A stretch of DNA of 60,586 nt, counting the filler, from Dugesia japonica (lineage: Eukaryota), in assembly GCA_001938525.1 (NCBI GenBank). It is 6 parts of 6 records of this genome, joined end to end, with 100 filler letters (N's around TTAATTAATTAA, not from the genome) between each part and the next. Parts side by side here need not be neighbours in the genome. Positions count along the whole stretch, not along the records: positions 39,588 to 50,081 come from MQRL01641892.1; 5 more parts are not named here. One strand, written 5' to 3'. Positions 19,627 through 60,586 of this stretch are shown piece by piece. Under the pieces are notes generated by a model that worked only from the letters and a program-made list of their open reading frames with translations, was not told the origin of the DNA and ran no database searches. The number at the start of each line of letters is the position of its first letter. Positions within the stretch are counted from its first letter, which is position 1. Position numbers and translations under genes: made by a program.

Positions 19627-19726
19627 NNNNNNNNNNNNNNNNNNNNNNNNNNNNNNNNNNNNNNNNNNNNTTAATTAATTAANNNNNNNNNNNNNNNNNN
19701 NNNNNNNNNNNNNNNNNNNNNNNNNN
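19627..19726. other. Artificial contig-joining spacer
   Basis: N44-TTAATTAATTAA-N44. Confidence 0.97.
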
Positions 19727-30221: not shown

Positions 30222-30321
30222 NNNNNNNNNNNNNNNNNNNNNNNNNNNNNNNNNNNNNNNNNNNNTTAATTAATTAANNNNNNNNNNNNNNNNNNNNNNN
30301 NNNNNNNNNNNNNNNNNNNNN
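30222..30321. other. Artificial contig-joining spacer
   Basis: N44-TTAATTAATTAA-N44. Confidence 0.97.
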
Positions 30322-38006: not shown

Positions 38007-38717
38007 TGTGAGATATGACTAAGAATAATATAATATTANNNNNNNNNNNNNNNNNNNNNNNNNNTATTATAGCAGCCCTTTGCCACAACCATTTCTTAAT
38101 TTTACAATTTTTCATTTTTCATAAAAATCGTGATTTTACATAAAAAATTCACGATTTTCGATTTTAATTTAAAATAAACTATGAAAATTTTCTATGCATG
38201 AATTTTTTNNNNNNNNNNNNNNNNNNNNNNNNNNNNNNNNNNNNNNNNNNNNNNNNNNNNNNNAAAAATACTCGATTTTTTATAGTCAATTTAAAATCTC
38301 AATTAAAAATCGAAAATTTTTTATCTCCGATTTTTTATACTCGATTTTTCATGTCCGATTTTAAATTACTCATAAAAATTCATGCATAGAAAATTTTCAT
38401 AGTTTATTTTAAATTAAAATCGAAAATCGTGAATTTTTTATGTTTTATGAAAATTTTTTTATGTAAAATCACGATTTTTATGAAAAATGAAAAATTGTAA
38501 AATTAAGAAATGGTTGTGGCAAAGGGCTGCTATAATACTATTACTGACATGTATGTGATAATAGGTGAATGCGTGATTGACTGCTTCAATGTGTGTATGA
38601 TTTTAGTTCTCAGACATTACATAAACGATTCCTCAAAAGCTATATATATTTGATACTGTGTAATTTTGTTCTTTAAATATAATTTTTATGCTTAACTCTA
38701 TTTAAGCAAGTCTAACA
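38007..38717 (+). mobile_element. Solo LTR (TG...CA) of the family at 51211-51445, interrupted by a palindromic element
   Basis: GAGATATGACTAAGAATAATATAATATT and ATGTATGTGATAATAGGT..GCTTAA..AAGTCTAACA match the reverse complement of 51211-51445. Confidence 0.8.
38065..38537. mobile_element. ~470 bp near-perfect fold-back (palindromic MITE)
   Basis: TATTATAGCAGCCCTTTGCCACAACCATTTCTTAATTTTACA... mirrored by ...TGTAAAATTAAGAAATGGTTGTGGCAAAGGGCTGCTATAATA; arms are at least 140 bp. Confidence 0.85.
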
Positions 38718-39487: not shown

Positions 39488-39587
39488 NNNNNNNNNNNNN
39501 NNNNNNNNNNNNNNNNNNNNNNNNNNNNNNNTTAATTAATTAANNNNNNNNNNNNNNNNNNNNNNNNNNNNNNNNNNNNNNNNNNNN
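39488..39587. other. Artificial contig-joining spacer
   Basis: N44-TTAATTAATTAA-N44. Confidence 0.97.
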
Positions 39588-39720
39588 TGTTCTTTAATTC
39601 TTGTACGGATGGTTCTGAATGATTCTCCTATATATGTATCCTTACATAAGGGGCATGTTATAATTTCCTTATATAGGTTTCACAATTCTCGAACATGCTA
39701 AAGAGGTGATGTATAATTTT
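39588..39720 (-). mobile_element. Penelope-like GIY-YIG endonuclease fragment
   Basis: Minus strand EIITCPLCKDTYIGESFRTIRTRIKE(H) fits the Penelope pattern I.C..C...YIGE..R....RI.EH. Confidence 0.8.
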
Positions 39721-39732
39721 ATATAAGAACAA

Positions 39733-40635
39733 ATGGATCCTTTAATAGAAGAAAATAACTATAAAATACACTACAGTGATAGTGTGACAAAAGACACTCC
39801 AATAATACTACGGAAAAATAATTAAGTTGTAATAAAAAAGATTTCAGAAATATCAACATCATATGAAAAAAATATTTGTGGTAGTAAATTTTAAGAAAAA
39901 CTACCAACAGAAAATAAAGTAGTAGAGGAAAAAATAAAGTAGTAGAAGAAATTAAACCAGAATTAGTAGATGAAGAAATTAAACCATTTGATATTAAAAG
40001 AATTAAATCAGGTGTAACTCTTGAAGAAGAAGAATTTAATGAAATGTTATTAAATAAAAATATAAAAACATATCATCTTAATAATATGGAAATTAATAAA
40101 GATGCAATAAAAGGAAAATTAATTCCTATAATGGGCGAAGATAGAAAATTTCAAACAATAGAGTATGAAGAAACTGGTGTGATTATATATTTATTTATAT
40201 TTTTATCAGAAATCATATTGTACAATTAATAGAAAAATTTATGATTATTCATATAAATTAAAGGATATAATTATATGAAATGTGAAAAAAATACAATCAA
40301 ATAAAGTTACGAAAAAATATATTGAAATATTTTTAAATGATATAACAAAACATGCAGAACCAAAATGTGAATATTAAAGTTTTTTAAAATCAAAATTAAT
40401 ACCCTGTAGAGCGCAAAGTTTACCTAGAGCTTTTAAAAAAGAAGGAAAAGGTATAAAGTCGCCGATAAGTTTATTTGAAAAGTTAACATTAATAATATCA
40501 GCAGCAAAATCTGGACATGATAATGTTGATGAAGAAATAAAGAGTGTTTGTAAAAAATTAAAAACTATTGGTTTAATATCTAACATGATTTATAAAAAAT
40601 ATAAAATAAAATATTTCTCATCTGCTCATGCATGA
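39733..40635 (+). pseudogene. Conserved Polinton/adintovirus hypothetical protein, frameshifted
   Basis: C-terminus GKGIKSPISLFEKLTLIISAAKSGHDNVDEEIKSVCKKLKTIGLI fits the Polinton pattern P..L..RL.L......AGN....EI..I...L...G.I. Confidence 0.6.
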
Positions 40636-40664
40636 TCAAATTATTTAAATTTTCTGTAGTAGAA

Positions 40665-41369
40665 ATGTCACATAAATTTTTAGTAGTTGGAAAAGAACAA
40701 GATTTAAAATTAGATTTAAAATTTCCTATAGAATTAGATTCAGAATATGTACTTGGATTGATATGCTTTACATGTTACAATATTATTTTTAACATTACAA
40801 ATGTAAATAATAAATTCAATATTACTAAAAGTTAAAATAAAACTAATGGAAGTAGTAATAATTTAAATTTAAAGATTGAACCTGGAGCTTATGAAATAAA
40901 AGAAATTTTAAGTAGATTAGAAAAATATGGAATAGAAATTGCGGCTGACACCTTTACAACAAAATGTAATATGAAAACAAAAAACTTATTAACTTTTGAT
41001 GATAAATCTTTTTTTCATAAAATGTTAAGTTTCACAGTAAATCCTTATATACCTGGAAATTATTATTCAGATAATAAAATTGACATTTCAAATATTAACA
41101 AGATAAATATTATTTGCAATATTCTTAAAGGTAATTATGTTAAAAGTAAAGAAACCCAACAAATAAATTTATTATATTCATTTCCAATTAATACAGTTCC
41201 TTTTGGATTTAAAATTATAGAAAGACCATCTGTCACAATTTATTCTAAAATTAATACAAAATATATTGACAGTTTAAAATTTAACATTGTAGATGAAAAC
41301 TTTAACACAATAGATTTTAACCAAGAGATGATATCAATTTTTGTACATTTAAGAAAATATCGTTTATAA
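40665..41369 (+). pseudogene. Minor capsid protein (penton, single jelly-roll) with one in-frame stop
   Basis: PIELDSEYVLGL..YN..FNIT..NNKF, IEPGAYEI, INIICNI, LLYSF...VPFGFKIIERP...Y, IVDEN...IDFNQE.ISI.VHLR. ORFs 40632 and 40971 share a frame and are split by TAA at 40833. Confidence 0.85.
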
Positions 41370-41409
41370 TTTTATGGGTCCCTTTGGGTTTTCCAAGGCA
41401 TGCATGCCT

Positions 41410-41758
41410 CGATAATTTTACACTTACCACTTTAAATTTTTTAAAAATATTTGGAATTAACACAACAACAAATTTTGATTTATATTCAATTGCTGACTTT
41501 TTAGATTTACCCTTGGAGATTTATATGAAAAATGAACTACCTAAAATCTTAAACAATAGCACCCCGACAGGTAATTTAAAAATTAATTATCAAAATACAA
41601 ATCAAAAAGGAACACATTGAACAGCTTACACAAATCATCAATACTTTGATTCTTTTGGTTTAAAACCTTTTGATGAACTTGAAAAATTAGTCACGAAATA
41701 TAATAAAATTCAAGTGCAACATTTTGGTTTAAAAATTTGTGGTGTATTTTTTATATAA
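41410..41758 (+). pseudogene. Adenain-like cysteine maturation protease
   Basis: INYQNTNQKGTH*TAY...YFDSFG...IQVQHFGLKICG: catalytic H, D, Q and C are present, and the Trp of GTHW is replaced by TGA (41618-41620). Confidence 0.85.
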
Positions 41759-41838
41759 AATTCAATATGTTGACTTCGATGAAATAATTTCAGAAATGAA
41801 AACAATTTATAAAAAATTATATTAATAAAAAGGTAGTT

Positions 41839-43764
41839 ATGAATAAGTTTGGTGAAAGTTTATTTGGTGTAAATAATTCATAATTAATTAAANNNNNNNN
41901 NNNNNNNNNNNNAATATCAAATGCAGAAAATGAAAATAAATATGTAAATGAAACAGGTGACACAATTACATGTTTAAAAATAACAGATGACCCTAAACAT
42001 TTAACAAATGCAGTTAATTTAAAATAAATTCAACTACTAGAAGAAAAAGTAGTAAGTCATGAATTAATTTTCACAAAAGTTTTAAAAATTGATAAATCCA
42101 CAATTAATTAAATTTATTTACAATTTAAAGCTGATGAATTAAATAAATTAAATAATATAGATTTCTCTAAAGAACTTAGTAGTATTAATGATAAAATTAA
42201 AAATCTAACTAAAAACTGTAATCAGGAAACATTTGATAAAATAGGTTCTGAAATTAAAAGAATAAAACTAGAAGTTTTCCCATTTAAAAGAAGTGATTTA
42301 TTGTATAGATTAAAAAAATAAGTGAAGAGGATGTAAATATTAAAATTAAAAAAGAAATTGTTATATTAACTAAGAAAGCTAATAAATTACTTACTGATTT
42401 AGATAAGAAAACTTTTGACCATTATTCATATCTTATTGATGTAATTAAATTAAATAAAGAATCTTTTAAATATGAAATTTCTGAAATACTTAAAGACATT
42501 AAAATAATAAAATCAAGATTACATAAAATTTTTGATAATAGAATTAATATTTTATTTAAAACTTATAAAGAAGCCTTTTCTGAACCAACACTTAAAACTT
42601 TAAGAGGGTTAATTGTTAATTACTTACTTTATGTTTTTAGGTCTACTGATGAAATAATATTTTCAATTATCTGTTATGAAAAACATGAAACTTTCCCACA
42701 ATTTTCTGTTATGGATAACTATGTACATAATTTAGATTTTATAAGAAAGGGGGAAATAAAAATTATAAAAAAATACAATATTTCTATCTTGAAGATCCTT
42801 TTAGCATTTACTTACATACAAATATTAATGAAAAACTTTTTATAAATATAGAGGGGTATTGTGAAATTGAAAACTTTAATTATATTATTAGAACTAATAA
42901 TATTGCAAAAACATTTACATATGATAATTGTGATGGTAGTACTAAAGAAAGTGGTAAAGAAGGTAATATAAAAATTTACCAAGAAAGCAGTGAAATTAAT
43001 AAAGATACTACTAAAGAAAGTGGTAAAGGTAGTATTATAAACTATATTGTAATAATGTTACCAAAAGGAATTTATTTATATTAATTTAGTGTTAAATTGT
43101 TAAAATTAAAAATTCATTAAGAATTATTTAATGAACATGAAAGAATAAGACCACAACTCCACATCAATTTTAGAAAAGAAATTGTTTCTTTATTAAAAAA
43201 ATATAAAGAAAATGGTTCTGAAGTAACTCTTAAAAGTTTAAGACACTTAATTTATAATTACTTACCTATTATTATTTTTAATATTTTAGATAAACATGCA
43301 ATATTTTTAATTTACACTCCTAATCCTAACTCCCATGTCAAGGGGATTTACCAGGTTTTTATTTTAAAACTTTATAATCTCCACTTTATGATATAGATTT
43401 TTTAAGAAAAGGTAAAATGATAAGGATTGGAGATATATTTTATTATCGTCTCGATGAACCATTTACTATTAATTTATCAGTAATTATTAATGTTAGAATT
43501 TATTTTCGGATTATAGGTTATTCTAAAATTAAAAGTCTTAATTACATCAATAAAATTAATCATTTTGCAGTATCATTTTTATGTATCATACCTAAAGGTG
43601 ATTTATTTGATATTAAAGTAGTAAGCACTAGAGTTAATAAATATAAGAAAATAAAATCTATTATAATAATTTTACTAAAAGGTATTTATATTCATCAAAT
43701 TTGTTTTGGAATATGTGAATACTCTGAATTGCTCATTGATTATACAGAAAAAATTGAAAAATAA
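41839..43764 (+). pseudogene. Fibre-like gene region with coiled coil and an internally duplicated distal domain
   Basis: Starts MNKFGE. KYVNETGDTI...DPKHLTNAVNLK resembles the YV...GDTM...P....DA.NK fibre repeat. Multiple stops and frameshifts. Confidence 0.5.
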
Positions 43765-43905
43765 AAAGTAACTACTAAAATATTAAAAAGTAACTACTAA
43801 AATATTAAAAAGTACTACAGTTAATATTAAAAAATGGTATGTAAAATCTAAAATATTAAATTTGTTGTAACTACTTTAAAAACAATTAAATTTAATGTAG
43901 TAAAA

Positions 43906-44667
43906 ATGGAGGACTACCAAGAGAATAAAAACTACAAAAATAATGAAAGTATTTATCTAAGTTTAGACGACTACCGAGGAGAAATTGAAAGAAGTAGTAC
44001 TATAGTAGATTTAAAAAATAAACTTGCATTATCTAGAATAAAATATTTTGAAAATGTTCTTTACTTTATAAAAGATAAAATAAAACATTTTAAAAAAATA
44101 CATAGAAGATGGGAAAGGATAGATTCAATAATAAAATTTACACAAATAATTGTTAGTGCAGGTATTGGAATTGGAGGTATAATTTTGATTGCACCAATTG
44201 GCATTGCACTTTCCCCCGTTGGTATACCAATTTTGACAGCTGCAATTTCCGTGTTGCCTATAATTGGTACATTAAATTCATCATTAATAAAATCAAGAAA
44301 GGAAAGATATGAAAAGTTAATTAAGAAACTTGAGGCTGTTAAAAATAAATTATTTCTATTTCAACAGAAAGCTGTCAATGATGAAATTTTAACTGATGAT
44401 GAATTGGCAATAAGTAAAAATATGGTAAATGAAGTCCATGAACTAATATCTTCTAATAAAGTTGAAAAGGATAAATCTAATGATGTTAGTTTAAAAATGT
44501 TAGTAGAAAATCAAACCANNNNNNNNNNNNNNNNNNNNNNNNNNNNNNNNNNNNNNNNNNNNNNNNNNNNNNNNNNNNNNNNNNNNNNNNNNNNNNNNNN
44601 NNNNNNNNNNNNNNNNNNAAATATTAAAAGTACTACAGAAAATATTAAAAGTAGTAATCTAAAGTAG
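43906..44667 (+). CDS. Polinton-type two-TM membrane protein
   Basis: Basic helix, Gly-rich hydrophobic hairpin (IIVSAGIGIGGIILIAPIGIALSPVGIPILTAAISVLPIIG), then KAVNDEILTDDE, similar to the KAL.D..I...E tail of a common Polinton membrane protein. Confidence 0.7.
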   Translation: MEDYQENKNYKNNESIYLSLDDYRGEIERSSTIVDLKNKLALSRIKYFENVLYFIKDKIKHFKKIHRRWERIDSIIKFTQIIVSAGIGIGGIILIAPIGIALSPVGIPILTAAISVLPIIGTLNSSLIKSRKERYEKLIKKLEAVKNKLFLFQQKAVNDEILTDDELAISKNMVNEVHELISSNKVEKDKSNDVSLKMLVENQTXXXXXXXXXXXXXXXXXXXXXXXXXXXXXXXXXXNIKSTTENIKSSNLK

Positions 44668-44761
44668 TAACATGTTCTCATGAAAACAGTTACTATGATT
44701 AGATTACTACTATAGAAAAAAGAAAAGAAAAAGTAGTACTATAGAAAAAAGTAGTTATAAA

Positions 44762-45034
44762 ATGATAATTATTGGAAGTGAATGTGATGGCAAAAAAGAA
44801 AAAATTAATAAAACAAAATTAGTTGAGAAAATTAGAAAATTATTTAAAACAAAAGAAGAAGAGGGTGAATTTCTACATATTTTATTGGATAGTCCAAATT
44901 CTTGTGGTGATGCAATATACTATAAAATGACAACTAAAGATCATTTGTTATTTTATATAAAAATGGGAAATCAAAATAAAAGTCATGGAAAAAAAATGAA
45001 AATGTATAAGAGAAAAAAAATAGAATTTATTTAA
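44762..45034 (+). CDS. Viral hypothetical protein
   Basis: ATG ORF within the element, preceded by the GTAGT motif. Confidence 0.45.
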   Translation: MIIIGSECDGKKEKINKTKLVEKIRKLFKTKEEEGEFLHILLDSPNSCGDAIYYKMTTKDHLLFYIKMGNQNKSHGKKMKMYKRKKIEFI

Positions 45035-45110
45035 AAAGTTCATGGGGAAAAATATTATAAAGATAATGTAATGTTTATAAATTATCTAAATCTTAGTAAG
45101 TAATACAGAA

Positions 45111-45551
45111 ATGGAAATATTTAAAGATAAATTTTTAAAATTTTTTGAAACCACTTCACATAATAATCAAATTGTTGGGTTATCAGAGACTGTTGATTTA
45201 ATTAATTCTTTTGAAAATGAAAGTTTAGAGAATTTAAGTGTTAATATAAAAAATTGGTATAATATTTTAAATATAGGAAGAAAAATTACTTTAATTTCTT
45301 ATTCACAATTAGGGGCTTTATTTAAAGCAATAAAATCAAAAATTAATAATAATAAAGAAATTGAAAAATATTTAGAAAGTATTGGAATTCTTTTTAAAAT
45401 TAATTATGTAAATAAATTAATTAAATTTAATGGGTTGGTTGAAATGTATCCAGAAATTGAAAACACTAATTTTTCACTTCGTACAATCCAAGAACATTTC
45501 CAAAAAATAAAAGAAATACTTCATGAAAAAAATATTCAACAGTTAATATAA
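45111..45551 (+). CDS. Viral helical protein, paralog A
   Basis: Shares NIKxWYN.LNI...I.LISY..LG...K.IK.K.N.N.E.E..L..IGI.FKINYVNK.IKF with 46309-46665. Confidence 0.7.
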   Translation: MEIFKDKFLKFFETTSHNNQIVGLSETVDLINSFENESLENLSVNIKNWYNILNIGRKITLISYSQLGALFKAIKSKINNNKEIEKYLESIGILFKINYVNKLIKFNGLVEMYPEIENTNFSLRTIQEHFQKIKEILHEKNIQQLI

Positions 45552-46308
45552 AACTACTACAGAAAAATTTAAAGTTGTACAGAAAAAATGTAAACGGTTA
45601 AATGTAAAGTGTTAAATTAAAAGTAGTAAATGTAAAGTTGTTAGTCTGGTAGCATGCTACCAGACATATTAAATTATTACTATAGAAAAAAGAAAAGAAA
45701 ATGGATGATAAACTTATAAAAGATTTAAGTGTTGTAATGAATGTGTATATAAAATTAAATATTATTTACAAACTTCTGAAAAAACAACTACTACAGAAAG
45801 AAATAAAGAAAGTTGTACAGAAAATATTAAAAGTAGTAGAGAAAGAGGTTATGGTTTTGAAAGTGGTAATTGGGTTGAATTCAATAGATTAAAAGAAAGT
45901 TGTTGGAATGAAATACCTTATGAACTACTTAAAAATAAAAAACCTAATACTAAACAAGTTAAAAAAGAATTTGAATATATTGATGCACCACCCGATTATG
46001 TTCCATTAAATACTCATTTTGAAATTACTACAGAAGGTAGTGATGGTGAAAATACTACTACAGAAGAAATAAAAAGTAGTACACAAGAAATGGAAAATAT
46101 TACACAAGAAAATACTACACGATAAATGGAAAGTAGTACATAAGAAAATACTATAGAAGAAAATAATGGTCTTGAAAGTACTACAGAAGAAAATAATGGT
46201 CTTGAAAATGGTACACAAGAAAGTGATGATGAATTTTTTGAAGAATTTTTAAAATCACTTAAAAATGAAATAATCATTCCTCAATCATTTAATTTAACAA
46301 ATGTAATA

Positions 46309-46665
46309 ATGAGTCCAGAGAATTCATTAAAATATAGAGAAGAAACTGTAGAAAATATAAATGATAATATTAAATACTGGTATAATAATTTAAATATTGA
46401 AAAACGAATTAATTTAATAAGTTATTACCTATTAGGTTTTTTCTTAAAAATGATAAAAACAAAATTTAATACTAATCGTGAAGTAGAAGAACATTTACAT
46501 AAAATTGGAATAAACTTTAAAATTAATTATGTAAATAAAATAATAAAATTTTATCGGTTTGCTAAGAAATATATAGATATTTTAAGATCAGATTGGTCAT
46601 TTAGAAGAATTGAAAAAAACTTTAATAAAATTAAAATATTTTTTCGAGAAAATAGATTCAACTAA
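46309..46665 (+). CDS. Viral helical protein, paralog B (probably the C-terminus of a longer frameshifted gene from 45701)
   Basis: Clear protein similarity to 45111-45551; the open frame extends upstream through an acidic EENNGLE repeat. Confidence 0.7.
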   Translation: MSPENSLKYREETVENINDNIKYWYNNLNIEKRINLISYYLLGFFLKMIKTKFNTNREVEEHLHKIGINFKINYVNKIIKFYRFAKKYIDILRSDWSFRRIEKNFNKIKIFFRENRFN

Positions 46666-46736
46666 TTCTACTACAGAAAAATTAAAAAAGTAGTACACTA
46701 AATTTAAAAGTACTAAAGAAAAAATATTTAAAAGTA

Positions 46737-47470
46737 TTAAAATAAGTCGTCTAACATTTCATCAGTTTCCTTATTCAAATAAAAATAGTTGTATTTGGTC
46801 TTCCAATGATAATTGACCTCATAATCATATTCTGATTTGTTAGTGAAAATATTAGAAAACAATTCATCATACACATTATCTCTATCTGTTTTATTTAATT
46901 TAAAAAAGATGTAACAATTTGAATTGCTACGTATAGAATTTTTATCTAAATCATAATATGTTTGTGAAATATAAATTACATTACAATTTGAATGTCTCTC
47001 GCGGGTGAAATAATTTTTTTGTATCTCTTGATTTTTCTCATAAACAACATCATCAAATATTATTAAATTTTTCTTTTCTTTTGAAAGTCTATCACATGAA
47101 ATTATTTCATTAGGTTTATTACTTAATGTTACAATTATAGATCTTGGTTTTTTAATTACTAATTTTTTATCCAAATAGAATGATAAAACTTGATATGGTG
47201 TAATACAATTATTTGAATTTCAAATTTTAATTTCTTGTTTAGTTAAACCATTTTCAAAACCAATGTAAAGTAATTGAATTTCAAATTGATTGATTGTTGT
47301 CGAATAAAAAAATTAAAACATCATAATCTAAAAATTTAGGTGTCAGTAACATTTTCATTAATAAAACATTTTTCCAACAACCTGATGAACCTATCATAAA
47401 GTCTAAAATTATTTGGTAATACTTTATTATTAAATGTTGTTATATTTTTATTCCAGATGTAAGATGTCAT
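46737..47470 (-). pseudogene. A32/FtsK-like genome-packaging ATPase
   Basis: Walker A remnant MIGSSGCWK (~47370-47397), Walker B LIIFDDVV, YFTRERHSNCNVIYISQTYYDL and IRSN. Frameshifted 5' part with ATG at 47470. Confidence 0.9.
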
Positions 47471-47509
47471 TTACTACAGAAAAAAAATAAAATGTTGTAA
47501 CTACTTATT

Positions 47510-47767
47510 TTACTTTTTTATTTTTTCTGTACCACTCTTCATTTTTTTCTGTAGTACTTTTTTATTTTTTCTTTTCTGTAGTGGTTTTATAATTGGTTCA
47601 TCATCAATGTCTTCTTTAAGATGTTTTATTCTTAATATGGATCTATATTCTCTTATATTTTTTACAAAAATTTTAAAATAATCCATTTGAGATTCTTCAG
47701 ATTTTAAATTTTCTAAATCTTCACAACCTTCTATAATTTTATCTAATTCTTTTAAAAGTTTATCCAT
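47510..47767 (-). CDS. Small charged viral hypothetical protein
   Basis: ATG ORF between PLA2X and the ATPase. Confidence 0.45.
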   Translation of the reverse strand: MDKLLKELDKIIEGCEDLENLKSEESQMDYFKIFVKNIREYRSILRIKHLKEDIDDEPIIKPLQKRKNKKVLQKKMKSGTEKIKK

Positions 47768-47863
47768 TTTAATATTTTATATTTTAATCACAACCATCTT
47801 TTTTTATTAAATCACTTTTCTGTAATTCATTTGAGTAGAATCTTCCCAACATTTTATTGCCGT

Positions 47864-48430
47864 TTAGATTTGAGATTTCAAATGTAAAAGGTTTTCTACC
47901 AACATTTTCATTTTTAGATTTATTATGTATTTGTATTGTACTTTTTGAAATGGATCTTTTTGTGTACCACCTTTTCCTATAACTACCTTTGCTTTCATTG
48001 CTAATTTTACCAATGCTCTTTGTAATTTTTCTGAAGTAGTTGGATTTGGAATATTATTTAAATCATGTATTAAATTTACATCTGCAATTTGTCGATCTCT
48101 AATATTTTCTGAATTTTCAAGGGTTTTAATTCGTTCTTCACCTGGATTTGGAATATTATTTTCATCAAGACGGATATCTAATCGTGTTCCAGGTCCAGTG
48201 TAATTGTGTTTGAATAAATGTCTTTCACCTGGATATTTTACCCATGTAAAAGGTTTTAAAATTGCAGATGTAACTTTAGAAGATTGGAGATCTCCTCCTT
48301 TTATATTACTACTCTGTTTTATATTACTACTATTCTGTTTTATATTATTAGTGCATAAATCTAAATGTCTTGATTTATTTTTCTTTAAAATTATTTTACC
48401 ACAATTGTCACATATAAATTTTGGTGTCAT
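47864..48430 (-). CDS. Zn-finger plus parvovirus VP1u-like phospholipase A2 (PLA2X), catalytic helix apparently deleted
   Basis: N-terminal CDNCGK....K.RH...C. KYPGERHLFKHNYTGPGTRLDIRL holds the YxGPG Ca loop and R..AD follows, but the expected D.AA..HD..Y segment is missing between them. Confidence 0.8.
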   Translation of the reverse strand: MTPKFICDNCGKIILKKNKSRHLDLCTNNIKQNSSNIKQSSNIKGGDLQSSKVTSAILKPFTWVKYPGERHLFKHNYTGPGTRLDIRLDENNIPNPGEERIKTLENSENIRDRQIADVNLIHDLNNIPNPTTSEKLQRALVKLAMKAKVVIGKGGTQKDPFQKVQYKYIINLKMKMLVENLLHLKSQI

Positions 48431-48824
48431 TTATTAAATTTAATACTTAAAATACTAATTTTTAATATTTTCTGTAGTACTTTTCATTTTTTCTGTAGTA
48501 CTTTTTATTTTTTCTGTAGTAAATCTGCTCATGCATGAGTAATATTTTATTTTTTTATATTAGGGATAAAACAAGTTTGCTTCGCAAGCACATTTTTAAT
48601 TAACATCTATTCCTCTTACATTTTCTATCATAATAATTTTACTATTTGCTAATTTCATTTCTAGATGTTTTTCTTCAATAATACACCAATAAATAGTTCC
48701 TTTTCACTCGAAATTTTACACTCAACATTTTAAATTTTTCATTTTTCACTCAAAATTTTACACTCGACATTTTACATTTTTCATAAAAAATAATGAAGGG
48801 AAGGGTATCCCCCTGGCTGCAAAC

Positions 48825-49350
48825 AGTATATCTATATATTTGTTGCATTGTCATTTTTGTTGAATGAATATATTTTATGCTTAACTTTATTTCCAAGTCT
48901 AATAGGGCTACCCCACGAATTCTGAATTCGTGTATTTCAACACTCTAGAATTTCGATATAGGAGGAAATATTAAAGAATTTATTAAAGAAGCAAATATAT
49001 TTTTTAAAATTTCTATAACTTCGAATCAGTTTTTAAAAAGGTAATTATACAAGTATTTATGATAACAGATGCAGTCAAATTATATAAAGCAGTGGATTCA
49101 AAGATTAAATATTTTAAAACATGATTTAGAGAAGCATTTTCTAAACATGCATATCTTGGTAAGTATTTGATTATTGCCTTGAAATATTGAAGACTTAATG
49201 AATCTTCAATTTCATATTTCTCAAATATTGATAAATTAGCAGATAATATTCTGCGTCATCAGTTAACGAAGGAAAAACTAGTCAAATTCATTTTACAAAA
49301 TTCAATGGATGATAAAGACATTTAAAATGCGAGACATAAAAGATGTTATA
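48825..49350 (+). mobile_element. Gypsy LTR-end plus gag remnant, same family as 50200-51445
   Basis: Shares TATATTTTATGCTTAA, GATA.AGGAGG.AATATT.AAGAATTTATT and TTAGCAGATAATATTCTGCGTCA.CAGTTAAC.AAGGAAAAACT with the minus-strand copy. Confidence 0.8.
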
Positions 49351-50081
49351 TTTGGAAGAAAACTGCTGCATAACTTAGCTGAATTAATACAAAGATCAGT
49401 TTATCTAAATTAATATTATTACAAATAAATAAGATACATAGACAATGTAAAATTTTAAATTATTTACAAACCGTAATATTCAAAGCATTGATAAGCGAAT
49501 AGTAATATTCGGTTACCGCATTGAAAACATATTTTTCCCAAGTCATTTCCGGGTATCCGGTAATGATATTCAGATATCTTTGCTACTTTAGAATTAAGGG
49601 AACTCATTTTTATATTACTAATTAGATCTTTAGTGATGATTTCATCTGGATAAATATCGCAAGTCACATCAAGAGGTTTATTTTTTTCATAAATCTTCGA
49701 ATAGTCTGGATTGATTGATATTATTATTATAGCGTCTAAATAAAGGAATAAATACTAAAAAATATAATGAAATTTTATATCGCTTAATTAGCTCTTTTCA
49801 TCCCAATGGGTTTATATGGGCCCATCGAATTCTTTTTATATTTATACTCCACATGGAACCATTGCTGTTTAATAAATTCATTATGTTGCTAGATGGCATA
49901 TTTAACATGATTTCATGCAATTTATGGCATTCACTAACGTTAGAAATAAATCGATGTGTTCTATGAGTGAGTTAACTGCTTTTTGTTTTGCAATAATTTG
50001 TTCTAAAAAGAATTTTGTTACAAATAATTGTTTTTTACAATCAAATAATCAAAAAAGTTTTATTAATTTATGGCGATCATT

Positions 50082-50181
50082 NNNNNNNNNNNNNNNNNNN
50101 NNNNNNNNNNNNNNNNNNNNNNNNNTTAATTAATTAANNNNNNNNNNNNNNNNNNNNNNNNNNNNNNNNNNNNNNNNNNNN
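50082..50181. other. Artificial contig-joining spacer
   Basis: N44-TTAATTAATTAA-N44. Confidence 0.97.
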
Positions 50182-50199: not shown

Positions 50200-51445
50200 A
50201 TTATCTACTTGATCTACTCCATCACTGGGACAGGCGTCATCATTTCGTCATCATTGGTATTCATTTGATATTTTCGTGTCTTGTTGTACATTTATCTTCT
50301 TTCTGCTCTCAAAGGATTAATTTCATGGCATAGTAATCGGAGATTTCCTGGATTTTTACAATGCGAATGTGACCTTCTCTGCATGCCCAACATTTTCTCA
50401 CTCTGAAAGTCTGAACATTGGGTTCATAATGTTCGCTCATAGNNNNNNNNNNNNNNNTTCGATAAATCTTGGAATCATATTTCTGCTCATAATTTTTACT
50501 TTGATTTAAATTTCCATTGAATCTTGGTTTATTAAATCTATTATTTGAAATTTCCCGCGCTACGGTTGCAAATGTACTTTTTTTTCAACGCTGATATTTC
50601 ATATTCTGGTTCCATTTCTTTTTTCAATCCATCAATTTTAATTATAATTTCTTTCATTTTTTCAACATNNNNNNNNNNNNNNNNNNNNNNNNNNNNNNNN
50701 NNNNNNNNNNNNNNNNNNAATCCATCAATTTTAATTATAATTTCTTTCATTTTTTCAACATCTTCTATATCTCGCCTTTTAATTTCCTTTTTAACTTCTT
50801 CATCATCTATTGAATTTTGTAAAAGAAGTTTTACGAGTTTTTCCTTAGTTAACTGGTGACGCAGAATATTATCTGCTAATTTTTCAACTTTTGTAAAAAA
50901 TTGAAATTGAGGATTCATGTAGTCAACAATATTTCAAGGCATTAATTAGATCTTTACCAAGGTTTGCAGGCTCTGAAAATTCTTTTCTGCTTCTTGTTTT
51001 GAAATCTTCAATCTTTGAATCGACTGTTTCATATAATTTGACTGCGTCTGTTGTCATAAAAGCTTTTATAATACTTTCTTTTTAACTGTTTCGAAGTCAT
51101 GGAAATTTCAAAAAATCTCTTTGCTTCATCAATAAATTCTTCAATATTCCCTCCTATCTCGAAAATCTTGGGTGTTGGAATCCGCGAGTTCAGGATTGGC
51201 GTGGTTTCCATGTTAGACTTTGAAAACGAATTAAGCATAAAATATATATTATAAACACAAAATGACATTGTAAAAAATATTATANCTTTTGAGCAATCAG
51301 TTATGTAATAATGTCTGAGCACTAAAATCATACACGCATTCAAACAGTCCATCACGCATTTACCTATTATCACATACATATATAAATTTACTTATATAAA
51401 GGTCAATATGAAAATATTATATTATTCTTAGTCATATCTCTCAAT
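50200..51445 (-). mobile_element. Gypsy 5' LTR, PBS and frameshifted gag
   Basis: LTR ends ...AAGTCTAACA at 51211, followed by PBS-like TGGAAACCACGCC. Gag-like METTPILNSRIPTPKIFEIGGNIEEFIDEAKRFF, with Cys/His knuckle traces near 50330-50400. Confidence 0.75.
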
Positions 51446-52760: not shown

Positions 52761-54895
52761 AAACTAACAGAATTAATGGTGAGATTGGATAGTAGATACG
52801 TCAAATGATAACACAAGCCATCCTCTTTATTCTGACTATTTAAATTTATATTGATATAAATTATTCATTTTCTATGGAAACAATGGAAGTGGTAAAAAGT
52901 ATAGACTTTTAGTCCGTTCTAGCCATTAGTTAATTCAAAGAACGATAAGATTAATGAAGTAAATTAATAATTATTGTGAGAAAGTATATCGGCCTTCATT
53001 AGGACCACGAATAATGATTTTAAATAAGTAAAAATAATAATAATTTTAAATTTAAAAGTAGCGGGAAAAATTTTTAATCAAACAAATTCTGCACCAAATA
53101 TTTTTTCTTACCCCATATTTTCGACCAATTAGATTCTGCGTCAATAATTTTTTTACCTCCCCCCAGAGGGATTGGTGTAGTGTGCCATTATGTACTTAAT
53201 GTAGATAAAAATATTTAATTTTTAATATTTTGCCATATTAATTTTGTATATTATTTTCTAATAAGCTTTCTCTCAATTATAATTCCTACTCTTAATAAAA
53301 TTACTAAATTATAATAGAATTTTTAGTAATATCCTGTAAAAAAAGCTTCATTATAAGCGCTCTAGTCTGTACCTAATTTTTTAAATTTTAATAACTAAAT
53401 GTCTAAATAAGTTATCTATTAATTTCTCAATATTTTCTATGATGAAGTGATATTTAACATAATAAATATCAAACTTCAGTATTAATATCTAATTTCTGTA
53501 TCTATATAACTATTAATAACAAAGAATTTATTACCCCAAACAATATTTAGAAAATATCTTAAAACATCAAATATGCAAATAGCACAGAAAACTATATAGA
53601 TATAATTGATAATATAAACAAACTAGATCCATCAGGTTTAAGCGGTTATTGAAAGAACATATGAATCACGTTAACTTAAGTTCTCATTTAGTTAAATAGA
53701 TAAATATTAACTTAATAAATTTGTTAGATAATTAAATAATTAATAATACGATTGATGAACATTTTCCAGTTTTTTATATCATCACTTAAAATAACACTAT
53801 TGATGTACATAATTCTGTATTTTATTTAGAGCAAAAAGACAGTTACTTGATATTATTTTTATCATTTTGTTATTACATTCAATAGATAATTTGGCATCTG
53901 TTGACATGACTATCGTTAATTGACCGTGTTATTGATAAGACAATTTTCTTTTATGTAAATCATTCGGTAATTTATTTTATGGCTACTTTGTGGTAGATCT
54001 TTCAACCAAATTTGGTTAAAAACATTAATATAATTAATAGAAAATCGAATATTTGTTATCTAACAAAAAAATAACTTTAAATTAAAAATAAACTTTTAAT
54101 TTCATCATCAATTAAAAAAACATTTTCGGTAAAATTGTGGTCACCGAAAATAATATTTTTGGTAAGAAACATCTTACAATAATAAAACCAATTGGAAAGT
54201 GTACCAGTTGACACTAATTATGTTACTAGGCTGGTGTAATACAGCAAGGTGTCAATGATGCACACTTGAAATACGAGCCGAATGATATTAAATAATTATA
54301 AGTGTCATCATTTAACACATTTTTTAAGTGGTGTGTGTTTGTTTACATATCCTATACTTAGTCGTTGATGGGTTAGCGATTATATTGACTAGGATCAATT
54401 GAAAATCTTCACATACACGAATGGTTACTAACCGACACTCTTTGCGATAATTCTAGATAAATTTCCCACTTGAGTTAAAAAATATTATCGAAAATTTTAA
54501 TATAAACAATGAAAGTAATAAATGTATTAGGTTACTATTTTTTTTTGAATACGAATATTAAAGAATGAAGCTATGTTAAATGTATTACTTTATTAACTTG
54601 TTTTTAAATAATTTATTTCAATTAAAATAATATTTGTCTAAAAAAGTCGAAAAATTTGGTATTACATACTATAATAAAGAAAAAGTATCCAAATGAATTT
54701 TATTGGTTGAAGGAGAAGACATATTTCAAGTAATTTCGTTATTCGTAAATTGCAATGTTTAGTGAAATTTTATTGGTGCAATTCGATACAATTCCGTTAA
54801 GTGTGTGATTTGATTAAAATGAAATATATAATGACGATATTAACAGATTTATTAATTAGATAAAAAAGTGAAGCTTTATTTTTATAAGGATCTAT

Positions 54896-56288
54896 ATGGA
54901 TAGAGATTCTAAAAAATCTCAGAAATCTTTAACTGATCAAACTCCAGAATTTTCAAGAAATTTTTTAAAATTAATGCAGCCACCAATTTATCCAATTACA
55001 GAAAAAGGAGCAAGAAAACCAAAGTGTGCGAGATGTAGAAATCATGGAATGGTATCATGGCTAAAGGGTCATAAAAGGCATTGCCACTACAAAGATTGTC
55101 GATGCGCTAAATGCAATTTGATAGCTGAAAGACAGAGAGTTATGGCTGCTCAAGTAGCCTTGAAAAGACAACAAGCAGCTGAAGATGCAATTGCTATTGG
55201 ATTGAGAACAGCTTTAAATGAATCTCAACTTCCACTTTTAACAGCTGGGCCTTTGTGGGGTCCAGGTTCTGTAAGTGCTCCAATATTAGGTTCACCAAAT
55301 ACTTCTAGTTACTGTGAACCAGATAAAATGAATGAAGAAGTTACTAAACAGCATCTAGAATTTAAAAAACTAGAAGATAAAATAAATAATTCAGACAATT
55401 TAAGCGATTCGGATTCAAATTCTGAAAAATTTGACGATAATATTAAAATATTTGAAGGTATCATAATATTCTTTGAGATTATTTTATGATTTATATTTAG
55501 GAAATGCAAAAATAAATAGCAGAAATGATCAACCGATGAAAAATAAAGAAATTTCATTAAACTACACTGAAAATGTATTAAGTGGATCTGATGATGACAA
55601 AAGTTATTCTACAAACAAAACCATTAATAGTAAATCAGATTTACTTGAATTGTTGAAGCATTTTTTCTCTCATAAAATGACAATTGACCCATTTTTGATT
55701 GATACATTAATGGAGAAATATAATAACAATGCGTCTAAATGTTTGGAAGAAATCATTAGGTATTCATCAAACTTTACATCGCTCAACAGCGAATCATCAA
55801 AAAACAATATTCTAGATGAGATTCATGAAAAAAATCTGTTGAGTTTGAAGCGTTTTATTATACCTTTTAATAACCCAAATGTACCGATTAACATGTGTCA
55901 AAATTCTCTCATTCATCGAGTACCTTCAAATGTAGATTACAATAATTTTTTCCATAACTCAAATTTTAAAAATGTGAATTTACATTCTGTCAATCCTACA
56001 AGTTTCCAGTTTAAGCCCCCAAATTATAATTATCCTTGTAATCCGTATTCAACATTACCTTATTTTTACCTTAATCAAAGAATTCAACAGAAGCAAATTT
56101 CTGAAATGTTAATAACTAAATCAATAAATGAAATTTCACCAGAGAAACCAATTAATTATTCTGATAAAGATGATTTTAAGAATAAAATTTCAGATAATAA
56201 ATTGATTTCGAATTCAAATACTGGCAGATCAACATTTTGGTCTTTGGTTGACTTGGTTAATGAAGAATCCTCTTTAACTTCTACCTAA
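54896..56288 (+). CDS. dmrt: Doublesex/mab-3-related transcription factor, Dmrt93B-like, 449 aa (exons 54896-55457, 55501-56288)
   Basis: DM domain [62 protein letters not shown] phase-1, 43-nt GT-AG intron 55458-55500 fuses the two ORFs. DMA-like LELLKHFF...[20 protein letters not shown] in exon 2. Confidence 0.95.
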
Positions 56289-58669: not shown

Positions 58670-59410
58670 CAGTATACTCCCGATTATCCGTGNNNNNNNN
58701 NNNNNNNNNNNNNNNNNNNNNNGGATACTATTAAGAAAACGCATACTTGTTTAAATAAATACACATTATTTATTTTAAGAAGTACAATTTTAATTTTATT
58801 GCTTTGCTATTGATTTATTGTTTATTTTTCTATAGGTTTAAAATTCCCTATGATAATTAAAATTTTAATTAAAATTAAAAATTAAATTTTTTAAATTTTA
58901 AATTATTTTAGAAAAATACCCTATCGCAATGTCAAATAATCGCAAAAGAGTCGTACTGACTGTGAAATAAAAACTTCAATTAATTAAAATGAGTGAAAAG
59001 GGCAAATCCACACCGAAACTTTCGGAAGAATACGGAGTTGGTGCTCAAACAGTTCGCGATATAATTAAGCAAAAGAGAAAGTTGGAGGAGTTTACAAGAG
59101 ACTGTGATAGTAATCCAGGTCCTTCAACTAGAAAAACTATGAAAATGTCATCATATGAAGATTTAGATACAGCTATACTTAAATGGTTTTATCAAAAACG
59201 AGCAGAAAGAATGCGAATTACAAGCTCTGTAATTGCACATGAAGCCAAATTCTTTTATGATTCATTGGAATTCAAGGACGACTTTAACGCATCTTCTGGA
59301 TGGCTAATCAAATTTAAGAAACGTCCTGGTATCAGTGAGCTTTCAATCCAAGGAGAACGCCTTAGCGGAGATGTTGACGCCGCTACTAAATTCCTGATTG
59401 AATTTGAGGA
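58670..59410 (+). mobile_element. Tigger/pogo (CENP-B-like) DNA transposon, 5' part
   Basis: TA then TIR-like CAGTATACTCCCGATTATCCG at 58670. The ORF from 58929 (RKRVVLTVK*KLQLI) continues with HTH motifs EEYGVGAQTVRDIIK, LDTAILKWFYQKR, FNASSGWLIKFKKR, IQGE. Truncated before the DDE domain. Confidence 0.9.
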
Positions 59411-60586
59411 AGCAAATGATATAAAGAAAGTGTAGCAAAAGACCTAAAAGAAACGTTATCATTAGTTGAAAAAAATAGAAAGAAGAGAACCTATTAATGT
59501 AGTAAAGAGTTACACTGGTGAATCACGTGGAGAACGTTTCGGAGAAAGGAAANAAAGTATTGAGAGAGTTACAAAAAGAACAGAACCACAGTGTTTGACA
59601 TGCCAGAGTTATGGGCATAGAAAAAGAGTGTCCGAAAAATTCTCATGTAGAATGTTGGACTTGTCACAAAAAAGAGCAATTAAGTAGAAATTGTTCAGAC
59701 AAGAAACCACCAAAATGTTTTGGGTGCGGTAAGATTCGTCATGTCAGAAGGATGTGCACAGAAATTGTATGCGGTAGATGTAAAAGACCAGGTCACATAG
59801 CAGAAGAATGTTATTCGAACATTAATAAACCTAGACTAGAAGAGAGAAGATACAATTTTAGAAGCCGACAACAAACAAAAGATTGGAGTCGGACAAAACC
59901 AATTCATGCCATTCAAGAAGAGTATGATGAAGAGAATGAAGATATATTTTCTGGGAACATAATAGAAAATGAAGATCCAAGAAGAGAATACCCAAAAGGC
60001 AGGGCTCCATCAGTAAAGGAGTTGGTCGGAGCCATTCATTAAACGAGTTAACGTTTGAATATCCTCAAGAGGCCGAGAAATGAGATCAGACGAGTAAAGT
60101 GAGAGAAAAGGTTTACAGATTCCTAAAAAGAGAAAGTTTCAATGATGCGAAAGTTAANAAAGGGAAGTGATAGAAATAATTGATGAGAATCAGAATACCG
60201 AAATTTTGTATGATAAGATGCAAGGGATACCTAGCATTTCAGTGATGATCAAGGGTGAACAGTTTTATTGTTTGTTGGATATAGGAGCAAGAATAAATGT
60301 GATGAACATGAAAAGATTTGATAGACTCGGAGAAATATTGTTAGAAAAAAGCGACGAACGATTGCATTGTGCGAATATCAGCTGGTTGGAGACGATTGGA
60401 AAGATACGTGTCAAAGTTGTAGTTTCAGAAGTGTGCAAGAAAGTAACATTTATAATAGTATAGAAATTAATAACAGATCTAATTGATGGAGTGAAATTTC
60501 AGAATACTTTTGGGTATCATTTTCAGAAAAAGTGCAAGGTAGACATCAATAATCATCGAGAAAAATTTGTTTGCAACATCAAATCA
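59411..60586 (+). mobile_element. Gypsy gag (four Zn knuckles) and aspartic protease, degenerate
   Basis: CLTCQSYGH, CWTCHKKEQLSRNC, CFGCGKIRHVRRMC, CGRCKRPGHIAEEC; protease CLLDIGARIN. Confidence 0.85.

What the first reader, a model, noticed from the sequence alone, without database searches (positions are those of the whole stretch)
39733..48800. Endogenous adintovirus/Polinton-like virus with a largely complete morphogenesis module
Seen: penton, adenain, A32-type ATPase, PLA2X, fibre-like and TM genes, intronless and densely packed, each core gene carrying only a few lesions. Known: this gene set typifies Polintons/adintoviruses. Inferred: a relatively recently inactivated provirus from a possibly undescribed lineage, with several orphan genes.
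Basis: partly seen in the sequence, partly recalled or inferred. Interest (0 to 1): 0.8.

Follow-up and report, generated by a model that had tools for sequence, protein, structure and literature searches.

The report
Decayed Polinton remnant lacking major capsid
This 9-kb stretch of an AT-rich animal genome carries broken genes for a virus vertex protein, protease, DNA-packaging motor and phospholipase-like protein but no detectable major capsid gene, and is likely one dead copy of a large family of Maverick/Polinton virus-like transposons, an ordinary kind of genomic fossil.

Summary
Partly confirmed. The penton, adenain protease, A32-type ATPase, PLA2X-like gene and a two-helix membrane gene are real, intronless and carry few lesions. 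The module is not 'largely complete': no major capsid gene is detectable in the 60-kb window, only a short C-terminal tail of the integrase survives, and I found no polymerase or terminal inverted repeats. The fibre call is weak. About 21,800 diverged contigs in each of two public runs lie on the stretch, so this is likely one decayed, truncated copy of a large Maverick/Polinton family. Such fossils are common. Strict family membership is not established, because the defining replication genes and ends are missing here, possibly in assembly gaps. The ATPase falls in a clade whose Walker A has Asn where Thr/Ser is usual (8 of 8 versus 0 of 72). An element-specific repeat containing the Maverick end motif clusters between genes (19 hits versus 0 elsewhere). 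Comparison with catalogued Polintons was not possible. Interest 0.27.

The parts
39588..39661 (-). Unrelated high-copy repeat bounding the element on the left; reads like a GIY-YIG endonuclease fragment (Penelope-like; label recalled, not confirmed by Pfam)
   Evidence: Loose ends pile up at 39661 in all 4 runs, depth bin about 130,000; translation; no GIY-YIG hit
39733..40620 (+). Broken conserved Polinton gene of unknown function upstream of the penton (several stops and frame changes)
   Evidence: C-terminal part hits L002 ORF at E 8e-9, profile iE 7.6e-8; same position before the penton in L005 and L013
40665..41369 (+). Penton (minor capsid protein, single jelly roll), one in-frame stop
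   Evidence: mavirus penton E 2e-7; Z 10.8, rmsd 12.5, 211 aligned; PBCV-1 chain Z 11.2, rmsd 3.1, 117 aligned
41426..41758 (+). Adenain-type maturation protease, stop beside the catalytic His
   Evidence: tblastn E 8e-13 to L005; profile iE 1.3e-11; related L017 ORF hits Peptidase_C5
41839..42318 (+). Possible fibre-like gene start, 3 stops and a 20-N gap; weak assignment
   Evidence: 12-residue match E 0.04, profile iE 1.2, follows adenain as in L009; stop count
42309..43764 (+). Broken unassigned ORF pieces with an internal duplication
   Evidence: blastn 71% over 146 nt; BLASTP 42%, E 4e-9; no Pfam hit under E 0.06
43909..44518 (+). Two-helix membrane protein, likely SLATT-like; open up to an assembly gap
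   Evidence: Hydrophobic stretch about residues 73-127; 124 homologs; model pLDDT 84.2; 8 of top 50 BFVD rows labelled SLATT, E 0.04-0.35
44761..45034 (+). Small unassigned ORF
   Evidence: no Pfam hit; low contig depth
45111..45551 (+). Unassigned ORF, paralog 1 of a duplicated pair, no stops
   Evidence: 49% over 106 aa to paralog 2, E 1e-30; no lead
45702..46665 (+). Broken ORF with repeat-rich front and paralog 2 domain (46333-46650)
   Evidence: tandem arrays
46737..47470 (-). A32-type packaging ATPase, two frameshifts and one stop; Walker A with Asn at the Thr/Ser position, Walker B intact
   Evidence: (phrog_2666, E 4e-8)
47510..47767 (-). Small unassigned ORF
   Evidence: low contig depth
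47808..47981 (-). C-terminal tail of an rve integrase; catalytic core absent
   Evidence: E 2e-6 to L012 piece, E 0.001 to residues 256-282 of the L009 integrase; L009 ORF is rve plus chromo
47864..48430 (-). PLA2X-like gene with N-terminal Cys-rich part; 12-residue gap over the catalytic His-Asp stretch
   Evidence: E 2e-14 to L014 ORF, which hits Phospholip_A2_4 at E 5.5e-11
39806..48521 (.). Dispersed element-specific motif TACTACAGAAAA, often in 21-22 bp arrays or as a TACTAC...GTAGTA dyad, mostly between genes
   Evidence: 19 hits inside, 0 in the rest of the window, Markov mean 0.88, max 3 of 100; 12 of 19 in the 15% intergenic share; arrays
48701..48784 (.). 14-nt tandem array near the right edge; no matching inverted copy at the left edge
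48833..49347 (.). Unrelated repeat bounding the right side, also at 50757-51379 (inverted) and 38549-38717; gag-like by eye only
   Evidence: no Pfam hit for 51032-51391

Best explanation
The stretch carries broken penton, adenain, A32-type ATPase and PLA2X-like genes plus an integrase tail, with no detectable major capsid gene, and is likely a dead, truncated copy of a multicopy Maverick/Polinton (adintovirus-type) element. Shown: gene identities, their lesions, gene order matching related loci (unknown gene-penton-adenain as in L005; PLA2X directly before integrase as in L009/L014), and thousands of diverged contigs in the same organism. Inferred: an ancestor entered the germ line through its rve integrase and the family amplified. 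This copy then lost most of the integrase by an internal deletion, lost or was cut off from its capsid gene, polymerase and termini, and gathered stops and frameshifts over roughly 1-4% substitution. It would now be unable to copy itself, integrate or build a particle. In the intact ancestor, by analogy with known Polintons, penton and major capsid would form the shell, the ATPase would package DNA, adenain would mature it and PLA2X would aid membrane entry.
For: Penton by sequence and fold. Adenain. ATPase. PLA2X and integrase tail. Synteny. Animal host context: DM domain E 6.7e-22, Tc5 transposase, eukaryotic Pus10 and retrotransposon domains. Multicopy family: 21,778 and 21,810 contigs laid in two studies, only 1,858 and 1,900 at 99% or more; summed word depth about 18,000-94,000 in bins over penton, adenain, membrane, ATPase and PLA2X genes versus 12-220 over several unassigned spans, with near-identical contigs at depth 4-6. 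3 stops in 1154 codons, implying 1.4% (0.3-4.0%) substitution. 96% of vertebrate Maverick loci are degraded (PMC8097293, passages).
Against: The features that define Polintons (pPolB, integrase core, TIRs, 6-bp TSD) and the MCP are not seen here, so assignment rests on the morphogenesis genes and gene order. The window's own adenain, ATPase and PLA2X pieces give no matching Pfam hit; identities are transitive through homologs. Summed depth is not a copy number, and the contig totals include flanking repeats. The listed near-identical contigs do not bridge the ATPase frameshifts and none spans the stretch, so some lesions could be assembly errors. Three N gaps could hide genes. No named reference was in the tree.
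Confidence: 0.8

Rival explanations
1. The broken and incomplete look is partly an assembly artefact: a short-read scaffold collapsed or stitched pieces of several copies of a very repetitive family, and the capsid and polymerase genes lie in the gaps.
For: N gaps at 39488-39587, 41893-41912 and 44519-44618; no listed contig spans the stretch; near-identical contigs differ from the window by 18-48 gap letters in repeat arrays; listed pieces do not bridge the ATPase breaks. In L005 the MCP lies upstream of the gene found at this element's cut left edge.
Against: Low-depth contigs with 0-4 differences support local sequence in two studies. The left edge abuts a different repeat before the gap. 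In-frame stops and an in-frame 12-codon gap are not typical collapse errors (inference). Gene order matches related loci.
Confidence: 0.12
2. This is a member of a non-autonomous deletion subfamily that lost polymerase, integrase core and capsid early and was copied in trans by helper Polintons.
For: High depth runs across PLA2X and the integrase tail alike; the retained genes have few stops.
Against: No terminal inverted repeats, which trans-mobilisation would need; both edges abut unrelated repeats; the listed joints cannot show whether other copies share the deletion.
Confidence: 0.06
3. The stop-free membrane gene and paralog pair have been kept by the host as functional captured genes.
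For: 0 stops in 397 codons of these spans.
Against: At the element's overall stop rate only about one stop is expected there, so zero is uninformative; the membrane gene is part of the multicopy family.
Confidence: 0.02

Closest known systems
Maverick/Polinton elements = adintoviruses (Polintoviricetes; Starrett et al. 2021, PMC8502044; Krupovic et al. 2014, PMC4028283)
   Same: Penton, adenain, A32/FtsK-type ATPase, PLA2X, rve integrase remnant, intronless dense genes, a likely SLATT-like gene (SLATT is a label in Fig. S2 of PMC8502044). PLA2X marks Alpha (Mayetiola-class) virion modules in that paper.
   Different: No MCP/hexon, pPolB, integrase core, TIRs or TSD detected in this copy; PLA2X lacks the catalytic stretch; ATPase Walker A has Asn; extra duplicated unassigned genes. 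Alpha/Beta class unresolved without PolB and hexon.
Degraded Maverick fossils of vertebrate genomes (PMC8097293)
   Same: Stops, frameshifts, lost TIRs; 96% of 3,511 loci degraded.
   Different: Invertebrate-like AT-rich host; different accessory genes; (AGT)2/(ACT)2 end motif found here enriched internally, not at ends.
Planarian Mavericks/Polintons (PMC8532177; bioRxiv 10.64898/2025.12.11.693146; bioRxiv 10.1101/2025.04.19.649669)
   Same: Abundant, expanded, piRNA-silenced Polintons and Orthopolintovirales insertions are reported in AT-rich flatworm genomes (passages).
   Different: That the host is a flatworm is my untested guess; no sequence comparison with those elements was possible.
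Unnamed metagenomic Polinton-like ATPases P0011-P0016, P0049, P0050, P0055
   Same: One clade with the window's ATPase (100 SH-aLRT); Walker A GxxGCGKN in 8 of 8 that have it.
   Different: Only up to 60% identical; short contigs with unknown gene content and hosts.

Membership tests
Maverick/Polinton (adintovirus) | Minor capsid protein (penton, single jelly roll) | tested here: met
   pseudogene with one stop
Maverick/Polinton (adintovirus) | A32/FtsK-type packaging ATPase | tested here: met
   pseudogene in three pieces
Maverick/Polinton (adintovirus) | Adenain-type cysteine protease | tested here: met
   linked to Peptidase_C5 through L017; pseudogene
Maverick/Polinton (adintovirus) | Double jelly-roll major capsid protein | tested here: not met
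   No hit with 4 MCP ORFs or their profile in six frames of the window; penton and adenain controls positive. Holds for the assembled sequence; gaps not readable.
Maverick/Polinton (adintovirus) | rve integrase | tested here: inconclusive
   C-terminal tail only; catalytic core absent from the assembled element
Maverick/Polinton (adintovirus) | Protein-primed family B polymerase | tested here: inconclusive
   No Pfam hit in 21 element ORF pieces, no PolB A/B/C motif match, no hit with the 1224-aa L017 ORF, but that query is not confirmed as pPolB and no confirmed pPolB query was at hand
Maverick/Polinton (adintovirus) | Terminal inverted repeats with (AG)3 or (AGT)2 ends | tested here: not met
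   Best inverted match between the ends is the internal motif arrays, 73% over 79 nt, not terminal; both edges abut other repeats
Maverick/Polinton (adintovirus) | 6-bp target site duplication | not testable with these tools
   Original ends are not present in the assembled sequence
Alpha (Mayetiola-class) adintovirus virion module | PLA2X gene | tested here: met
   catalytic stretch missing in this copy; pX-like C-terminus not tested separately
Alpha or Beta adintovirus | PolB class and hexon/penton cluster against named references | not testable with these tools
   No PolB or hexon; reference sequence files of PMC8502044 lay beyond the readable part of the supplement
SLATT 2TM proteins | SLATT profile or fold match | tested here: inconclusive
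   No SLATT family among the 25 shown of 32 Pfam families for 100 aligned members; 8 of 50 BFVD rows SLATT-labelled at E 0.04-0.35; Atlas DUF4231 at 0.85, 16% of members

The most novel reading that the evidence does not exclude
The copy belongs to an undescribed clade of animal Polintoviricetes whose packaging motor works with Asn instead of Thr/Ser in Walker A, and whose genes are controlled by an internal repeat built from the Maverick end motif, acting as a virus-specific promoter or protein-binding site (and, inverted, as an acceptor-like signal just before the penton and ATPase starts), perhaps bound by the duplicated 45111/46333 protein.
Probability: 0.2. Interest if true: 0.55.

Novelty: new member of a known kind. 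Interest (0 to 1): 0.27.

Why it matters
As a fossil copy it matters little: degraded Mavericks are the rule. It marks a large Polinton family in this host. If the two side observations hold, they give testable handles on open questions about animal Polintons, for which no virions have been seen (bioRxiv 10.64898/2026.06.19.733378, passage): how their genes are switched on, and whether a packaging ATPase can work with a non-standard Walker A.

Tried and rejected
- No whole genome is held for this window, so copies, termini and gene content of the family could not be surveyed.
- Pfam on 26 ORF pieces gave nothing useful inside the element; PHROGs gave one real hit in 21; PDB sequence searches gave nothing significant for penton, membrane protein, paralog pair or the L017 large ORF.
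- Four scans of viral contigs found no relatives. Genome contigs gave 1 distant locus, L017.
- Atlas: no lead for paralog 1; unnamed clusters at 0.90 for the membrane protein. Its PDB fold search stayed at helical background, best Z 9.6. The remaining unassigned ORFs had no broad homolog search, so 'orphan' is unproven.
- Expression: no RNA holder listed. Laid RNA runs gave 414 and 63 reads, 74% and 89% running on into unlike sequence, many from the left-edge repeat, strandedness unclear. Inconclusive.
- The motif is absent from L001-L016 and has 2 hits in the 16.8-kb L017, so it is not shown to be clade-wide; none of those loci is in the Asn clade.
- Earlier findings: three look-ups returned nothing.
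- Literature: searches for Polinton + Walker A + packaging ATPase (3 listed), polinton + promoter motif + capsid + endogenous (10 of 12 listed), Polinton + flatworm + major capsid protein (1 listed) showed no title or abstract start on an Asn Walker A or this motif; only listings were seen, apart from passages of the paper. The supplement of PMC8502044 was cut at 4.0 million characters, before its sequence file and host table, so its zero hits mean nothing. Kapitonov and Jurka 2006 is not held. bioRxiv supplements, including the profile set of 10.64898/2026.06.19.733378, were not seen and may place this lineage.
- Rejected: free contaminating virus (lesions, host genes and repeats around it, many diverged contigs); hidden MCP in 42309-43764 (no profile hit).
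Full report
Setting. The window is AT-rich animal DNA with many assembly gaps: a DM-domain gene, eukaryotic Pus10, an M60-like peptidase, and retrotransposon and Tc5 fragments. That the host is a flatworm is my guess and was not tested. The element runs from about 39662 to 48820. It is bounded on the left by a different high-copy repeat (loose ends at 39661 in all four runs) and a scaffold gap, and on the right by a repeat with further copies at 38549-38717 and 50757-51379.

What is there. Penton: 40665-41369, one stop. Read with X it finds 10 of 408 candidates, best 42%. The model (pLDDT 75.5, 11 sequences) matches mavirus, Sputnik and adenovirus pentons (E 2e-7 to 1e-3; Z 10-11 for the top four rows) and a MELD-virus penton in BFVD (E 1.5e-10). 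Adenain: profile iE 1.3e-11 with His, Asp, Gln and Cys positions and a stop beside the His. ATPase: three pieces on the minus strand, the longest 58% identical to P0011; 17 of 20 homologs carry Pox_A32. PLA2X-like gene: 34% to an L014 protein that is Phospholip_A2_4, with a 12-residue gap over the catalytic stretch. It is overlapped by the C-terminal tail of an rve integrase. In L009 and L014 the integrase follows PLA2X directly, so most of the integrase was likely deleted. A conserved unknown gene precedes the penton as in L005 and L013. The membrane gene has 124 homologs and is likely SLATT-like on weak fold evidence. The fibre call rests on a 12-residue match and position. A paralog pair (49%) and three other spans remain unassigned.

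What is not there. Four MCP ORFs from related loci (one confirmed as PF21738) give no tblastn hit and no profile hit in six frames, while penton and adenain profiles from the same loci hit strongly. No pPolB was found, but the test lacked a confirmed query. No terminal inverted repeat exists between the ends. 'Largely complete morphogenesis module' is therefore overstated. Gaps at 39488-39587 and 44519-44618 could hide genes.

Copy number and age. Two runs held as contigs, from different studies (one may be the assembly's source), lay 21,778 and 21,810 contigs on 39588-49400 at 85% likeness; 1,858 and 1,900 are 99% or more alike. Summed depth is about 18,000-94,000 in bins over the core genes and 12-220 over several unassigned spans; near-identical contigs have depth 4-6. 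Summed depth is not a copy number and the totals include the flanking repeats, but up to 95 separate contigs differ at single sites in the core genes. This points to a large diverged family. Homology-defined spans hold 3 stops in 1154 codons, implying 1.4% (0.3-4.0%) substitution since selection ended. I left the fibre-like span (3 stops in 160 codons) and the front of the first gene (2 in 68, read) out of that count; adding them gives about 3%. RNA evidence is inconclusive.

Two side findings. First, a quick IQ-TREE tree (careful search unfinished; SH-aLRT only; 84 rows: the window's longest ATPase piece, proteins over 190 aa among P0011-P0024 and P0049-P0109, and 10 locus ORFs; P0025-P0048 and P0110-P0157 left out; no named references) places the window with P0011 (99) in a 10-row clade (100). 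All 8 clade members with a Walker A have Asn at the Thr/Ser position; 0 of 72 matched outside rows do (69 Thr, 2 Ser, 1 Met; 4 rows had no match). The window's own motif has the Asn too. The analogy to the Ras S17N change that weakens Mg-nucleotide binding is recalled, not tested. The search profile was built from this clade and its neighbours, so sampling is biased. Second, TACTACAGAAAA (up to 1 mismatch) occurs 19 times in the element and never in the other 51 kb (Markov mean 0.88, max 3 of 100). 12 of 19 lie in the 15% intergenic share, by gene bounds I set. 17 of 19 follow the local gene strand, partly expected from A-rich coding strands; the 2 inverted ones form a pyrimidine tract plus AG just before the penton and ATPase start codons. 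ACTACT/AGTAGT, the end motif of vertebrate Mavericks (PMC8097293, passage), occurs 31 times (3.4 per kb versus 0.38 outside; Markov mean 5.2, max 11 of 200). A promoter or binding site, an acceptor, or a functionless minisatellite all fit.

Mechanism. The most likely reading is a dead, truncated copy: integration by the rve integrase and family amplification (inferred), then deletion, truncation and point decay (lesions shown, order inferred). It would not replicate or form particles. Rivals are partial assembly artefact (0.12), a non-autonomous subfamily (0.06) and host capture (0.02).

Comparison with what is known. It looks like a Maverick/Polinton/adintovirus, terms treated as synonyms in bioRxiv 10.64898/2026.06.19.733378 (passages). 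The gene set is that of PMC8502044 (sections 3.1 and 3.2 read, passages, first part of a cut supplement) and PMC4028283 (first quarter read). I do not file this copy as a strict member, since MCP and TIRs were tested and not met and pPolB and integrase are inconclusive; it is a remnant of that kind. Degraded copies are the norm (PMC8097293, passages), and Polintons are reported as abundant in planarians (PMC8532177, 10.64898/2025.12.11.693146, 10.1101/2025.04.19.649669, passages only). PMC6431247 was seen as passages. Whether this family is already catalogued could not be tested.

Verdict. New member of a known kind; interest 0.27. Most novel open reading: a distinct clade with a non-standard packaging motor and an end-motif-derived gene signal, probability 0.2, interest 0.55.

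Noticed in passing
window 54872-56288 (+): DM-domain (doublesex/mab-3 related) host gene, apparently in two exons (DM E 6.7e-22).
   Followed up: partly
window 1988-3731 (+): Eukaryotic Pus10 pseudouridine synthase; a 506-codon open frame.
   Followed up: partly
window 26241-28505 (+): 754-codon single open frame with an M60-like peptidase domain.
   Followed up: partly
window 21878-24857 and 59599-60463: Decayed LTR-retrotransposon gag/pol pieces; Tc5/CENP-B transposase piece at 58971-59435.
   Followed up: partly
window 9374-9473, 19627-19726, 30222-30321, 39488-39587, 50082-50181: Identical artificial linkers (44 N, 12 bases, 44 N) about every 10 kb: assembly joins, so adjacency across them is not assured.
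   Followed up: no
window 40624 and 48527 (+): A 12-bp sequence GCTCATGCATGA occurs twice in the element, each next to a motif site, and nowhere else in the window.
   Followed up: partly
window 48530-48703 (-): Short broken reading frame in a high-depth part of the family; unassigned.
   Followed up: partly
L017 (contig of a bacterial MAG), 844-11936: Polinton-like contig filed in a bacterial genome bin: rve integrase, adenain, A32 ATPase, deoxynucleoside kinase and a 1224-aa ORF with a PolB-B-like motif; likely mis-binned.
   Followed up: partly
L014 1-6005: Tandem repetition of a PLA2X-integrase-adenain-partial ATPase block about every 2.6 kb; rearrangement or assembly artefact.
   Followed up: no
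L001, L002, L004, L005, L009, L012: Small genes with a hydrophobic GG-x-LPL stretch near the ATPase; their profile does not hit this window.
   Followed up: partly
window 48412-48415 joined to 41374 in X1 and X3 contigs: Contigs in both runs join the PLA2X start region to the adenain start, hinting at a different gene order in other copies.
   Followed up: no
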